DNA of 64,000 nt from Escherichia coli (GCF_044324785.1 NZ_CP172127.1); one strand, 5' to 3'. Positions 35,106 through 36,642 are shown, counted from the first letter of the stretch. Program-made: numbers and translations. The notes: a model not told the origin generated them from the letters alone.

Positions 35106-35882
35106 ATGTCCGAAACAAAAAACGAACTTGAAGATCTGCTGGAAAAAGCAGCAACCGAACCGGCGCACCGCCCGGCCTTTTTCCGTACGCTACTGGGATC
35201 CACCGTCTGGGTGCCTGGTACGGCGGCGCAGGGCGAGGCTGTGGTTGAAGATAGCGCACTTGATTTACAGCACTGGGAAAAAGAAGACGGCACCAGTGTC
35301 ATTCCTTTTTTCACCTCGTTAGAAGCACTTCAACAGGTGGTTGAAGACGAACAGGCATTTGTCGTAATGCCCGTTCGCACATTGTTTGAGATGACCCTTG
35401 GCGAAACGCTCTTCCTTAATGCCAAACTGCCAACCGGTAAAGAATTTATGCCGCGTGAAATCAGTTTGCTGATTGGTGAAGAAGGAAATCTGCTGAGCAG
35501 CCAGGAAGTACTGGAAGGCGGTGAATCGCTGATATTATCGGAAGTTGCAGAGCCACCAGCACAAATGATTGATTCACTCACCACCTTATTTAAAACCATT
35601 AAGCCAGTGAAGCGTGCTTTTCTTTGTTCAATTAAAGAGAACGAAGAGGCACAGCCTAATTTACTTATTGGCATTGAAGCCGATGGTGATATCGAAGAAA
35701 TTATTCAGGCGGCGGGAAGTGTAGCGACCGATACATTACCTGGCGATGAACCCATCGATATTTGTCAGGTGAAAAAAGGGGAAAAAGGAATTAGCCACTT
35801 TATTACCGAACATATTGTGCCATTCTATGAACGTCGCTGGGGTGGTTTTTTGCGTGACTTTAAACAGAACCGGATAATCTAA
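35106..35882 (+). CDS. sseB: SseB (enhancer of serine sensitivity) family protein
   Basis: 258 aa from MSETKNELEDLL; position between pepB and sseA. Confidence 0.85.
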   Translation: MSETKNELEDLLEKAATEPAHRPAFFRTLLGSTVWVPGTAAQGEAVVEDSALDLQHWEKEDGTSVIPFFTSLEALQQVVEDEQAFVVMPVRTLFEMTLGETLFLNAKLPTGKEFMPREISLLIGEEGNLLSSQEVLEGGESLILSEVAEPPAQMIDSLTTLFKTIKPVKRAFLCSIKENEEAQPNLLIGIEADGDIEEIIQAAGSVATDTLPGDEPIDICQVKKGEKGISHFITEHIVPFYERRWGGFLRDFKQNRII

Positions 35883-35885
35883 AAT

Positions 35886-35912
35886 ATGCCGCCCCAAAGG
35901 GCGGCATTCGGG
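35886..35912. terminator. Bidirectional intrinsic terminator: ends sseB on the + strand and the putative ryfA transcript on the - strand
   Basis: Hairpin gccgccc caaa gggcggc; on the - strand it is followed by atatttt. Confidence 0.55.
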
Positions 35913-36199
35913 CTTACCTGCTGTTCTGAAGGTTGTTAACCACCAATAAATTGTTGCCGGAGAGACTCCGGTTATTATTTACCTCGGTTAACAGCGCACC
36001 AGAAACAATAAGTACGATACAAAAGCACCGTATCTTCATTGTGCGGTCCATGCGAAGACCGCATCACGACAGCACCACTGGCGATATTGCCGCGATAGCA
36101 AGCGCTGAGACGCGCTTGCCCTAACGGTCGCGGAACATCCTTTCCTTAAGCCAGCGCCCGCTTGCGAGACGGCGGAAAGGTCCGCAGTGGATAACACAC
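35893..36199 (-). ncRNA. ryfA: Putative ryfA transcript (about 300 nt), a small mRNA/sRNA carrying a short hydrophobic ORF
   Basis: From memory, ryfA lies next to the sseB 3' end in K-12. Candidate - strand promoter (-35 TTGTCA, 16-bp spacer, -10 TATTGT) near 36207-36234 and the terminator at 35886-35912 bound a roughly 300-nt unit. Confidence 0.45.
35914..36051 (-). CDS. Small hydrophobic ORF (45 codons; 41 from the internal Met at 36039): MDRTMKIRCFCIVLIVSGALLTEVNNNRSLSGNNLLVVNNLQNSR; candidate type I toxin-like membrane peptide (TimP-like)
   Basis: Hand-translated from the - strand; hydrophobic stretch CFCIVLIVSGALL; lies inside the putative ryfA transcript; not in the ORF track because it is under 60 aa. 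Confidence 0.35.
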   Translation of the reverse strand: MDRTMKIRCFCIVLIVSGALLTEVNNNRSLSGNNLLVVNNLQNSR

Positions 36200-36262
36200 T
36201 AACAGAACAATAATAACTCTCTTTTACTTGACAAAAAGAGAGTTACTGGCGAGTATTGTGTC

Positions 36263-36359
36263 CGCTGAGACGCGCTTGCATTACTACGGTTATACAATCT
36301 GCTGGAAAGGCCGCGAACCAAACCAGCAACAAATAACCGCCTGATTTTGGCGGTTTTTT
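36263..36359 (+). ncRNA. Candidate sRNA (about 97 nt) divergent from ryfA, with a 17-nt perfect antisense match to the ryfA 5' region; antitoxin-like (TimR-like)
   Basis: Promoter TTGACA (36228-36233), 17-bp spacer, GAGTAT; internal hairpin tgctgg...ccagca; intrinsic terminator aaccgcc tgatttt ggcggtt plus T6 at 36335-36359; 36263-36279 is identical to 36103-36119 on the same strand. Confidence 0.4.
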
Positions 36360-36539
36360 GTTGTTTAAAGAAAGTGAAATTACACGTTTAAGTAATATCT
36401 TTTACCAGTTAGTATATTTTAATATTAAGCGGGATTTGTTTATATTTGTCTGAATTCGGACTGATAAGCCAAATGAATTCAAAATCTATCCTTTTTTATC
36501 TACTTGACATCGTTGATGCATAAAGCGAGTATTGAGTAG

Positions 36540-36626
36540 ACGAGATACACTTGCAGTAATACAACCTGCTGGAAAGGCCGCGAATCAGACCAGCAATAAA
36601 AAAACCGCCAAATTCGGCGGTTTTTT
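36540..36626 (+). ncRNA. Sibling copy of the candidate sRNA (about 87 nt) with degenerate antisense region; its terminator is bidirectional and also serves sseA
   Basis: Same promoter architecture (TTGACA 36504-36509, 17-bp spacer, GAGTAT), same internal hairpin (cctgctggaaaggccgcgaa...cagca), terminator aaaaaaaccgccaaattcggcggtttttt. Confidence 0.35.
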
Positions 36627-36642
36627 ATTGCCTGTAAAAAGC

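What the first reader, a model, noticed from the sequence alone, without database searches (positions are those of the whole stretch)
36103..36279. 17-nt perfect antisense match between the candidate sRNA and the ryfA 5' region
Positions 36263-36279 (cgctgagacgcgcttgc), at the predicted 5' end of the + strand sRNA, are identical to 36103-36119 on the same strand. The sRNA is therefore perfectly complementary over 17 nt to the - strand ryfA transcript, about 50-70 nt upstream of the small ORF start. A trans-encoded match of this length is unlikely by chance in a 700-bp region and fits sRNA-mediated repression of the peptide mRNA.
Basis: seen in the sequence. Interest (0 to 1): 0.55.

Follow-up and report, generated by a model that had tools for sequence, protein, structure and literature searches.

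The report
Known TimR–timP antitoxin/toxin RNA pairing
The 17-base match is real and is the pairing site by which the small RNA TimR (RyfB) shuts off translation of the toxic peptide TimP encoded in ryfA, a toxin-antitoxin pair already worked out in Salmonella, so it is correct but ordinary.

Summary
CGCTGAGACGCGCTTGC occurs exactly twice in the window, at 36103-36119 and 36263-36279 on the + strand. Chance expectation is 0.03.

The first copy lies inside ryfA (Rfam RF00126, 36185..35881, minus strand). There it forms the 5' arm, the loop and 3 nt of the 3' arm of stem-loop SL2. It sits 64-80 nt upstream of the annotated timP start codon.

The second copy sits 7 nt after a conserved TTGACA-17-GAGTAT promoter. 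It is therefore the 5' end of a divergent, terminator-ended sRNA of about 100 nt.

This is the published timPR (ryfA/ryfB) type I toxin-antitoxin system. In Salmonella, TimR pairs with SL2, disrupts an SL1-SL3 pseudoknot and blocks TimP translation.

Across 15 Enterobacterales loci the two sites co-vary strongly. Ten of 25 intermolecular pairs carry changes on both sides. Cognate duplexes average -40.9 kcal/mol against -27.2 for non-cognate ones.

Novelty: already known.

Side observations:
- The window carries a second TimR paralog (about 36539-36632) whose seed has no target here but matches another E. coli timP allele.
- In K-12 the cognate sRNA is the distal copy.
- Some genomes carry deletions exactly between the two repeats.

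The parts
35881..36185 (-). ryfA RNA, i.e. the timP toxin mRNA (about 305 nt, ending in an intrinsic terminator at 35907-35886)
   Evidence: Rfam RF00126, 318.6 bits, full model 1-296. Terminator-like site found.
35914..36039 (-). timP coding sequence, 41 aa: MKIRCFCIVLIVSGALLTEVNNNRSLSGNNLLVVNNLQNSR. An in-frame upstream AUG at 36051 gives the 45-aa ORF.
   Evidence: ORF list. The RefSeq timP CDS lies at the equivalent position in E. coli N3 and K-12. NCBIfam NF040796 toxic_TimP, 84.2 bits against a cut-off of 45.
36103..36119 (-). TimR binding site in the timP 5'UTR (mRNA nt 67-83, GCAAGCGCGUCUCAGCG). It covers the 5' arm, the loop and 3 nt of the 3' arm of SL2.
   Evidence: Exact reverse complement of 36263-36279. 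Structure.
36097..36120 (-). Stem-loop SL2 (mRNA nt 66-89: 9-bp stem, 6-nt loop GUCUCA)
   Evidence: Minimum-free-energy fold. Consensus fold and pair counts on 15 homologs. The loop has an opening energy of 0.0 kcal/mol.
36150..36156 (-). Pseudoknot site in the upper SL1 (mRNA nt 30-36, CGCUGGC)
   Evidence: Pairs with nt 104-110. 100% of cells are paired in 15 homologs, and 3 of 7 pairs carry compensatory changes. Function shown in Salmonella (PMC11228461).
36076..36082 (-). Pseudoknot partner in the SL3 loop (mRNA nt 104-110, GCCAGUG)
36043..36062 (-). SL4, the hairpin that sequesters the Shine-Dalgarno region just upstream of the timP AUG (mRNA nt 124-143)
   Evidence: Seven pairs, invariant and 100% paired in 15 homologs. 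Role taken from PMC11228461.
36190..36195 (-). Probable -10 box of the timP promoter. It reads TGTTAT here and TATTAT in K-12 and N3.
   Evidence: A TAnnAT box sits at this position upstream of ryfA in the 15 loci with an intact ryfA 5' end (sequences). The window differs at 36196 (alignment A1). The assignment is an inference.
36228..36256 (+). Promoter of the proximal sRNA: -35 TTGACA (36228-36233), 17-nt spacer, -10 GAGTAT (36251-36256)
   Evidence: Same geometry in all 15 TimR-like copies from 6 genera. The generic promoter scan missed it because the -10 matches only 3 of 6 consensus bases.
36263..36361 (+). Proximal TimR/RyfB-type antitoxin sRNA, about 100 nt. The 5' end is predicted at 36263 +/- 1.
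   Evidence: Promoter geometry. Conserved body CTGCTGGAAAGGCCGC. Terminator at 36335-36355 followed by a T-run.
36263..36279 (+). Seed of the proximal sRNA (CGCUGAGACGCGCUUGC), perfectly complementary to 36119-36103 of the mRNA
   Evidence: Hybrid energy -35.1 kcal/mol, net -17.4 after opening both sites.
36504..36632 (+). Second (distal) TimR paralog: promoter TTGACA 36504-36509 / GAGTAT 36527-36532, seed GACGAGAUACACUUGC at 36539-36554, terminator 36599-36626. It is an orphan in this window.
   Evidence: Repeat D1, 78% identical to the proximal copy. Its seed has no other match with up to 3 mismatches in the window. Duplex with the window's own SL2 is only -16.7 kcal/mol, against -32.1 with the allele of E. 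coli AF14.

Best explanation
The locus between sseB and sseA is the timPR (ryfA/ryfB) type I toxin-antitoxin module.

The minus strand gives a roughly 305-nt mRNA with a long structured 5'UTR made of SL1 to SL4. It encodes the 41-aa membrane peptide TimP. The plus strand gives a divergent, non-overlapping sRNA of about 100 nt (TimR), and the first 17 nt of that sRNA are the second copy of the repeat.

TimR nucleates on the open 6-nt loop of SL2 and zips into a 17-bp duplex that unfolds SL2. In the Salmonella system this prevents or destabilises the SL1-SL3 pseudoknot. Without the pseudoknot the ribosome cannot start on the SL4-sequestered Shine-Dalgarno sequence, so TimP is not made.

Shown here:
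- the repeat
- the family memberships
- the promoter and terminator anatomy
- the energetics
- the conservation of SL1-SL4 and the pseudoknot
- co-variation of seed and target

Inferred from published work on the Salmonella orthologue:
- repression of translation
- the pseudoknot mechanism
- toxicity of the peptide
For: Sequence anatomy:
- Exact 17-nt repeat, far beyond chance.
- ryfA RF00126 at 318.6 bits.
- TimP NF040796 at 84.2 bits.
- RefSeq annotates timP at this position in E. coli.
- The sRNA promoter TTGAC[AT]-17-xAxTAT is invariant in 15 copies. The seed ends 22-23 nt after the -10 by regex in 14 copies; the 15th (Rahnella bruchi) reads 23 by eye, because the regex stopped early. The seed is therefore the 5' end of the sRNA.
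- Terminator at 36335-36355.

Energetics:
- Hybrid -35.1 kcal/mol. Opening costs are +13.6 for the target and +4.1 for the sRNA, giving a net -17.4. The SL2 loop is freely accessible.

Co-variation:
- In 15 loci from Escherichia, Citrobacter, Superficieibacter, Yersinia, Erwinia and Rahnella the SL2 loop sequence differs. Twelve of the 15 carry an exact match of at least 10 nt 74-95 nt upstream of ryfA +1. In K-12, Y. artesiana and Esch_E1V33 the match is shorter or imperfect.
- Cognate duplexes average -40.9 kcal/mol against -27.2 +/- 7.2 for non-cognate ones.
- On the concatenated alignment, 10 of 25 intermolecular pairs have changes on both sides. The covariation score is 0.429 against 0.183 +/- 0.018 in shuffles (0 of 500 reach it) and at most 0.14 for slid registers.

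mRNA structure:
- The 5'UTR architecture is kept, with 91% of cells paired.
- The pseudoknot is 100% paired, with 3 of 7 pairs compensatory.

Literature:
- 18-nt TimR-timP complementarity, compensatory M6 mutants and in vitro translation inhibition (PMC7667032).
- TimR site in SL2 and pseudoknot disruption (PMC11228461).
- Structural switch (PMC13000454).
- RyfB1 lowers RyfA1 in Shigella (PMC5333039).
- TimR was detected by northern blot in E. coli CFT073 and CH138 (PMC13188913).
Against: - There are no expression or 5'-end data for this particular sequence. The sRNA start is inferred from promoter geometry.
- In E. coli and Shigella the TimP peptide itself has not been detected (PMC5333039, PMC13188913).
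- Deleting timR in avian pathogenic E. coli had little phenotype, whereas deleting ryfA did. That study reads this as RyfA and TimR also acting as riboregulators (PMC13188913).
- In this window the conserved -10 box of timP carries a G at the -11 position (TGTTAT). No exact copy of a 55-nt query spanning this box was found in 5,426 complete E. coli genomes. The toxin gene may therefore be poorly transcribed in this strain.
- Within E. coli, pairing is not always with the adjacent sRNA. In K-12 the proximal copy is imperfectly matched.
Confidence: 0.93

Rival explanations
1. RyfA works mainly as a non-coding regulatory RNA. The 17-nt pairing would then be sRNA-sRNA antagonism: TimR titrates or destabilises RyfA, or RyfA sponges TimR. 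It would not be control of a peptide toxin.
For: RyfB1 overproduction lowers RyfA1 RNA levels, and no peptide was detected in Shigella (PMC5333039). [quoted passage not shown]
Against: The ORF scores as TimP family (84.2 bits against a cut-off of 45). The SD-sequestering SL4 and the AUG context are invariant in 15 homologs from 6 genera, which is what a translated gene predicts. TimP toxicity and translation control were shown directly in Salmonella (PMC7667032). This rival also uses the same pairing, so it changes the downstream reading and not the finding.
Confidence: 0.12
2. The duplex acts chiefly as an RNase III substrate, so that TimR triggers cleavage and decay of the timP mRNA. This is the pattern in several other type I systems, and translation blockade would be secondary.
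For: A perfect 17-bp duplex can form (-35.1 kcal/mol). RyfA1 levels drop when RyfB1 is overproduced (PMC5333039). Duplex cleavage by RNase III is common in type I systems (introduction of PMC11228461).
Against: In Salmonella, deleting timR did not substantially change timP mRNA levels but strongly raised TimP. TimR also blocks translation in a purified system without RNases (PMC7667032, PMC11228461).
Confidence: 0.1
3. The repeat is a non-functional relic of the tandem duplication that shaped this intergenic region, or a chance match.
For: The region is visibly built from duplicated units: two sRNA copies 267 nt apart at 78% identity, and a leftover ryfA 5' fragment in K-12.
Against: Chance is excluded. 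A relic would decay. Instead the two sites change together in six genera, while intermolecular pairing is kept in 81% of cells and non-cognate combinations pair far less well.
Confidence: 0.01

Closest known systems
timPR type I toxin-antitoxin system of Salmonella enterica (TimP toxin / TimR sRNA; formerly ryfA / STnc2070)
   Same: - Same Rfam RNA family and same TimP peptide family.
- Same divergent, non-overlapping gene arrangement next to sseB.
- The 5' end of the sRNA pairs with SL2 of the 5'UTR, more than 60 nt upstream of the RBS (17 nt here, 18 nt in Salmonella).
- Same SL1-SL4 architecture, with an SL1-SL3 pseudoknot and an SL4-sequestered SD.
   Different: - The seed and target sequences are species- and allele-specific.
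- The E. coli-type locus lacks STM2534 and carries a second TimR paralog.
- No experiments exist on this particular allele.
RyfA1/RyfB1 and RyfA2/RyfB2 sibling pairs of Shigella dysenteriae (Fris et al. 2017)
   Same: - Orthologous locus.
[quoted passage not shown]
- Divergent sRNAs of about 100 nt with about 17 nt of complementarity overlapping that variable region.
   Different: S. dysenteriae keeps two complete ryfA genes in tandem. The window has one ryfA and two sRNAs. That study treated RyfA as non-coding.
tisB/istR-1, zorO/orzO, shoB/ohsC and dinQ/agrB (trans-encoded type I systems of E. coli)
   Same: - A small hydrophobic toxin mRNA with a long structured 5'UTR.
- A divergently encoded antitoxin sRNA with a short (about 18-20 nt) perfect match far upstream of the RBS.
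   Different: Those mRNAs need 5' processing to become translatable, and the antitoxins block a standby site or trigger RNase III cleavage. timP is not processed and uses a pseudoknot-based structural switch (PMC11228461, PMC13000454). There is no sequence homology.

Membership tests
timPR (ryfA/TimR) type I toxin-antitoxin system | Toxin transcript belongs to the ryfA RNA family (RF00126) | tested here: met
   318.6 bits against a gathering score of 80, full-length match 36185..35881.
timPR (ryfA/TimR) type I toxin-antitoxin system | The transcript encodes a TimP-family small hydrophobic peptide | tested here: met
   41-aa ORF at 36039..35914. NF040796 toxic_TimP at 84.2 bits against a cut-off of 45. 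The same CDS is annotated as timP in RefSeq E. coli.
timPR (ryfA/TimR) type I toxin-antitoxin system | A divergently transcribed, non-overlapping sRNA gene with its own promoter and intrinsic terminator lies upstream of the toxin gene | tested here: met
   TTGACA-17-GAGTAT at 36228-36256, terminator at 36335-36355 plus a T-run. The body motif CTGCTGGAAAGGCCGC is shared with homologs in 6 genera. Transcription itself was not tested.
timPR (ryfA/TimR) type I toxin-antitoxin system | The 5' end of the sRNA is complementary (about 17-18 nt) to SL2 of the toxin 5'UTR, more than 60 nt upstream of the start codon | tested here: met
   17 of 17 nt, mRNA nt 67-83, 64-80 nt upstream of the AUG. Hybrid -35.1 kcal/mol, net -17.4.
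timPR (ryfA/TimR) type I toxin-antitoxin system | Seed and target co-vary among homologous loci | tested here: met
   Ten of 25 pairs have double changes. Covariation score 0.429 against 0.183 +/- 0.018 in shuffles (0 of 500). Cognate duplexes -40.9 against non-cognate -27.2 kcal/mol.
timPR (ryfA/TimR) type I toxin-antitoxin system | An SL1-SL3 pseudoknot and an SL4 hairpin that sequesters the SD are present in the 5'UTR | tested here: met
   A 7-bp pseudoknot can form (nt 30-36 with nt 104-110). It is 100% paired in 15 homologs, with 3 pairs compensatory. SL4 is 100% paired but invariant, so it offers no co-variation evidence.
timPR (ryfA/TimR) type I toxin-antitoxin system | The mapped sRNA 5' end includes the seed | not testable with these tools
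   Only inferred, from the invariant distance between the -10 box and the seed and from the Salmonella data (PMC7667032).
timPR (ryfA/TimR) type I toxin-antitoxin system | The peptide is toxic when overproduced, and the sRNA represses its translation through the pairing | not testable with these tools
   Shown for the Salmonella orthologue only (PMC7667032, PMC11228461). Not established in E. coli (PMC13188913).

The most novel reading that the evidence does not exclude
The E. coli timPR locus behaves as a shuffled set of specificity modules.

At least four SL2-target / sRNA-seed classes exist:
- A: CGCGT type (this window)
- B: TGTTT type (K-12)
- C: CACCC type
- D: TGTAT type

Strains carry one toxin allele but often two sRNAs, only one of them cognate. 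The window's distal sRNA (seed D) is an orphan whose matching toxin allele is found in other strains such as AF14.

In K-12 the adjacent sRNA (seed A) is the mismatched one, and the distal sRNA is the true partner. A seed-A sRNA is present in about 4,528 of 5,426 complete genomes, but an allele-A target in only about 2,908.

If the orphan sRNAs are expressed and maintained by selection, two roles are possible. They could neutralise incoming timP alleles after recombination, or they could act on other targets, as the APEC study hints for TimR. That would be an antitoxin-repertoire layer that I did not find described in the papers I read.

Separately, seed and target are direct repeats. Deletions exactly between them recur (E. 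coli 06-00048, C. amalonaticus, two Yersinia species). Such a deletion removes both promoters in one step, which would be a safe way to lose the module.
Probability: 0.2. Interest if true: 0.4.

Novelty: already known. Interest (0 to 1): 0.12.

Why it matters
For the finding itself, it matters little. The finding correctly rediscovers from raw sequence a published regulatory interaction. NCBI already annotates the toxin gene, and the mechanism has been dissected in Salmonella.

Its value here is twofold. It is a positive control for the scan. It also supplies an independent, quantitative confirmation that seed and target co-evolve across six genera.

The side observations could interest people working on type I toxin-antitoxin evolution and on E. 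coli ryfA phenotypes:
- orphan and swapped TimR paralogs within E. coli
- repeat-mediated deletions
- a private -11 change in the timP promoter of this strain

One practical consequence follows. Which sRNA is deleted as 'timR' in a given strain determines whether the true partner was removed.

Tried and rejected
- RNAduplex on the full-length RNAs gave meaningless end-to-end duplexes (-77.5 kcal/mol against -63.5 for shuffles). I replaced it with short-region duplexes plus explicit opening energies.
- The generic promoter scan did not report the sRNA promoter, because its -10 (GAGTAT) matches only 3 of 6 consensus bases. The promoter was recognised from conservation instead. The scan's minus-strand hit (TTGTCA...TATTGT, 36234-36207) lies too far from the ryfA 5' end to be its promoter.
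Most hits were chance matches in GC-rich genomes. Fifteen Enterobacterales loci were recovered, but no Salmonella locus, so the comparison with Salmonella rests on the papers.
- A first longest-common-word script included a 15-nt overlap between the two regions compared and returned trivial matches. It was corrected.
- A 55-nt megablast query across the timP -10 box could not give allele frequencies, because the 28-nt word requirement failed. It shows only that no exact copy of that 55-nt query exists in the 5,426 genomes.
- I considered a target elsewhere in the window for the distal sRNA. None exists with up to 3 mismatches.
- I considered direct RBS occlusion as the mechanism. I rejected it because the site is 64 nt from the AUG.

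Full report
**1. The observation**

The + strand reads CGCTGAGACGCGCTTGC at 36103-36119 and again at 36263-36279. A search allowing up to two mismatches finds only these two sites on either strand of the 64-kb window. The expectation from shuffles is 0.03. The repeat finder lists the same pair (D2). The longest word shared by the ryfA 5' region and the 455 nt that follow is 17. In 300 shuffles the mean was 7.4 and the maximum 10. The match is exactly 17 nt, because the next positions on both sides would be mismatches.

**2. What lies there**

Rfam places ryfA (RF00126) at 36185..35881 on the minus strand with 318.6 bits. The minus strand carries a small ORF. [quoted passage not shown]

The interval lies between sseB and sseA. 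It matches 5,425 of 5,426 complete E. coli genomes, where RefSeq annotates timP at the same place. The closest genome is strain N3, at 99.6% over 811 nt.

In mRNA coordinates the first 17-mer is nt 67-83. That is the 5' arm, the 6-nt loop and three bases of the 3' arm of a 9-bp hairpin, SL2. It lies 64-80 nt upstream of the annotated AUG.

The second 17-mer starts 7 nt after a GAGTAT box, which is preceded by a 17-nt spacer and TTGACA (36228-36256). About 70 nt downstream is an intrinsic terminator (36335-36355). Together these define a divergent, non-overlapping sRNA of about 100 nt whose first bases are the seed.

The generic promoter scan missed this promoter. However, its geometry (TTGAC[AT], 17 nt, xAxTAT) is identical in all 15 homologous copies I collected. 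The seed end falls 22-23 nt after the -10 by regex in 14 of them. The 15th (Rahnella bruchi) reads 23 by eye, because the regex stopped early.

**3. Energetics**

- The 17-bp hybrid is worth -35.1 kcal/mol.
- Opening the target costs 13.6 kcal/mol.
- Opening the sRNA 5' end costs 4.1 kcal/mol.
- The net is -17.4 kcal/mol.
- The SL2 loop costs nothing to open, so it is a natural nucleation point.
- Co-folding the 5'UTR with the sRNA gains about 20 kcal/mol over the separate folds, and it uses exactly this duplex.

**4.

One pattern scan of the species-representative genome collection returned many chance hits. It also returned 15 Enterobacterales ryfA loci, all confirmed by Rfam. Together with E. 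coli loci fetched by similarity, this gave 15 loci with an intact 5'UTR. They come from Escherichia, Citrobacter, Superficieibacter, Yersinia, Erwinia and Rahnella.

The SL2 loop differs from genus to genus. Twelve of the 15 loci carry an exact copy of at least 10 nt of their own version 74-95 nt upstream of ryfA +1, at the start of the divergent sRNA. In K-12, Y. artesiana and Esch_E1V33 the match is shorter or imperfect.

Duplex energies for all sRNA-target combinations average -40.9 kcal/mol for cognate pairs and -27.2 +/- 7.2 for non-cognate pairs. The own target ranks first, alone or tied, for 9 of 15 sRNAs. The others are beaten only by the target of another locus in the set, often one with the same or nearly the same SL2, or, as in K-12, have their true partner in the distal copy.

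I then counted pairs on a gap-free concatenated alignment (A3):
- 81% of cells are paired.
- Ten of 25 intermolecular pairs have changes on both sides. For example, one position shows A-U in 5 loci, G-C in 5, C-G in 2 and U-A in 2.
- The covariation score is 0.429, against 0.183 +/- 0.018 in shuffles (0 of 500 reach it).
- Registers slid by 1-3 columns score at most 0.14.

The two sites co-vary, so the refutation criterion is not met.

**5. The mRNA context**

On the 15 5'UTRs, the four stem-loops and a 7-bp SL1-SL3 interaction (nt 30-36 with nt 104-110) are kept. Overall 91% of cells are paired. The SL1-SL3 helix is 100% paired, with three compensatory pairs. RNAalifold predicts that helix on its own. 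SL4, which holds the Shine-Dalgarno region, is invariant.

**6. Comparison with what is known**

This is the timPR system.
- Andresen et al. 2020 (PMC7667032) showed that Salmonella ryfA encodes the toxic inner-membrane peptide TimP. They found an 18-nt complementarity between the TimR 5' end and the timP 5'UTR. They proved it with compensatory mutants and in vitro translation. They also noted complementary divergent sRNAs in all enterobacteria examined.
- Eleftheraki & Holmqvist 2024 (PMC11228461) placed the site in SL2. They showed that translation needs an SL1-SL3 pseudoknot and that TimR binding destabilises it.
- A 2026 paper (PMC13000454) added a long-range switch that frees the SD.
- Fris et al. 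2017 (PMC5333039) had predicted the equivalent RyfB1-RyfA1 pairing in Shigella. They listed four versions of a 'variable region' in SL2. The window carries their CGCGT version.
- TimR has been seen on northern blots in E. coli CFT073 and CH138 (PMC13188913).

All sequence-level defining features of the family are met here. Toxicity, repression and the sRNA 5' end cannot be tested with these tools. The finding is therefore correct and already known.

**7. Rival readings**

Chance, or a duplication relic, is excluded by the co-variation.

Two readings remain as non-exclusive variants, because E. coli and Shigella studies did not detect the peptide and did see RNA-level effects (PMC5333039, PMC13188913):
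- the pairing mainly controls RyfA as a non-coding regulator;
- the pairing mainly triggers RNase III decay.

The Salmonella data favour translational control, since timP mRNA levels were unchanged in the timR mutant and repression worked in a purified system.

**8. Things seen in passing**

*(a) A second TimR paralog.* It lies at about 36539-36632, 78% identical in its body to the first copy, with the same promoter geometry but a different seed, GACGAGAUACACUUGC. That seed has no other match in the window with up to three mismatches. It pairs poorly with the window's SL2 (-16.7 kcal/mol). It pairs well (-32.1) with the SL2 allele of E. coli AF14, where it is the cognate copy.

*(b) K-12 is swapped.* In K-12 the adjacent sRNA has the same seed as in the window, but SL2 is a different allele (-28.3 kcal/mol). 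The distal sRNA is the good partner (-35.7). A 50-mer around the allele-A target is found in 2,908 of 5,426 complete genomes. The seed-A sRNA 50-mer is found in 4,528, and the seed-D sRNA 50-mer in 394. At least about 1,600 genomes therefore carry a seed-A sRNA without its perfect target.

*(c) Deletions between the repeats.* In E. coli 06-00048 the sequence runs directly from the 3' side of SL2 into an sRNA body, joined exactly at the seed/target repeat. The same fused form occurs in C. amalonaticus, Y. similis and Y. aleksiciae (lower Rfam scores). This is what a deletion between the two direct repeats would produce. It removes SL1 and both promoters.

*(d) The IS128 hit.* The Rfam IS128 hit (36495..36317, minus strand) overlaps the sRNA terminator. 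Compared with K-12 it lacks 46 bp that contain a ryfA-like 5' fragment. This suggests that IS128 is a remnant of a second ryfA copy.

*(e) A promoter variant.* The window differs from N3 and K-12 at 36196. This changes the conserved TAnnAT box upstream of ryfA to TGTTAT, an A to G change at -11. No exact copy of a 55-nt query spanning this box exists in the 5,426 genomes.

**9. Verdict**

The mechanism is known from the orthologous system, and the novelty class is 'already known'. Interest is low (0.12). The only mildly new angle is the population-level mosaic of seeds and targets. I rate it separately at probability 0.2 of being a selected antitoxin repertoire, with interest 0.4 if true.

Noticed in passing
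window 36504-36632 (+): A second TimR-like sRNA gene has the same promoter geometry and a terminator but a different seed (GACGAGATACACTTGC, 36539-36554). The seed has no target in the window. It matches the SL2 allele of E. coli AF14 (locus L126), so it is an orphan antitoxin here. Its 50-mer occurs in 394 of 5,426 complete E. coli genomes.
   Followed up: partly
L001 (E. coli K-12 MC4100) 601-1468; also L003, L126, L128, L129: In K-12 the sRNA adjacent to timP has the window's seed but is mismatched to K-12's SL2 allele (-28.3 kcal/mol). The distal sRNA is the good partner (-35.7). E. coli strains mix at least four target/seed classes. The seed-A sRNA is present in 4,528 genomes and the allele-A target in 2,908.
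   Followed up: partly
L127 2740-2850 (E. coli 06-00048); L080 (C. amalonaticus), L071 (Y. similis), L116 (Y. aleksiciae): In these fused loci the sRNA body abuts SL2 exactly at the seed/target repeat. SL1 and both promoters are missing. This is the expected product of a deletion between the two direct repeats. In 06-00048 an IS3-family element is also inserted in the sRNA terminator.
   Followed up: partly
window 36317-36495 (-): The Rfam IS128 (RF00125) hit overlaps the bidirectional terminator of the proximal sRNA. Compared with K-12 (261 bits) it scores 166 bits and lacks 46 bp that contain a ryfA-like 5' fragment (CGGCCCTTTCCGCCGT). IS128 looks like the remnant of a second ryfA gene.
   Followed up: partly
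window 36196 (and 36291): At 36196 the window has C where N3 and K-12 have T. This turns the conserved TAnnAT box upstream of ryfA into TGTTAT, a G at the -11 position. No exact copy of a 55-nt query spanning it was found in 5,426 E. coli genomes. At 36291 a T in place of A introduces a U:U mismatch in the small hairpin of the sRNA.
   Followed up: partly
L071 4361-4467 (+): In Yersinia similis the Rfam family Ysr224 (133.9 bits) lies immediately upstream of the fused ryfA copy, on the same strand.
   Followed up: no
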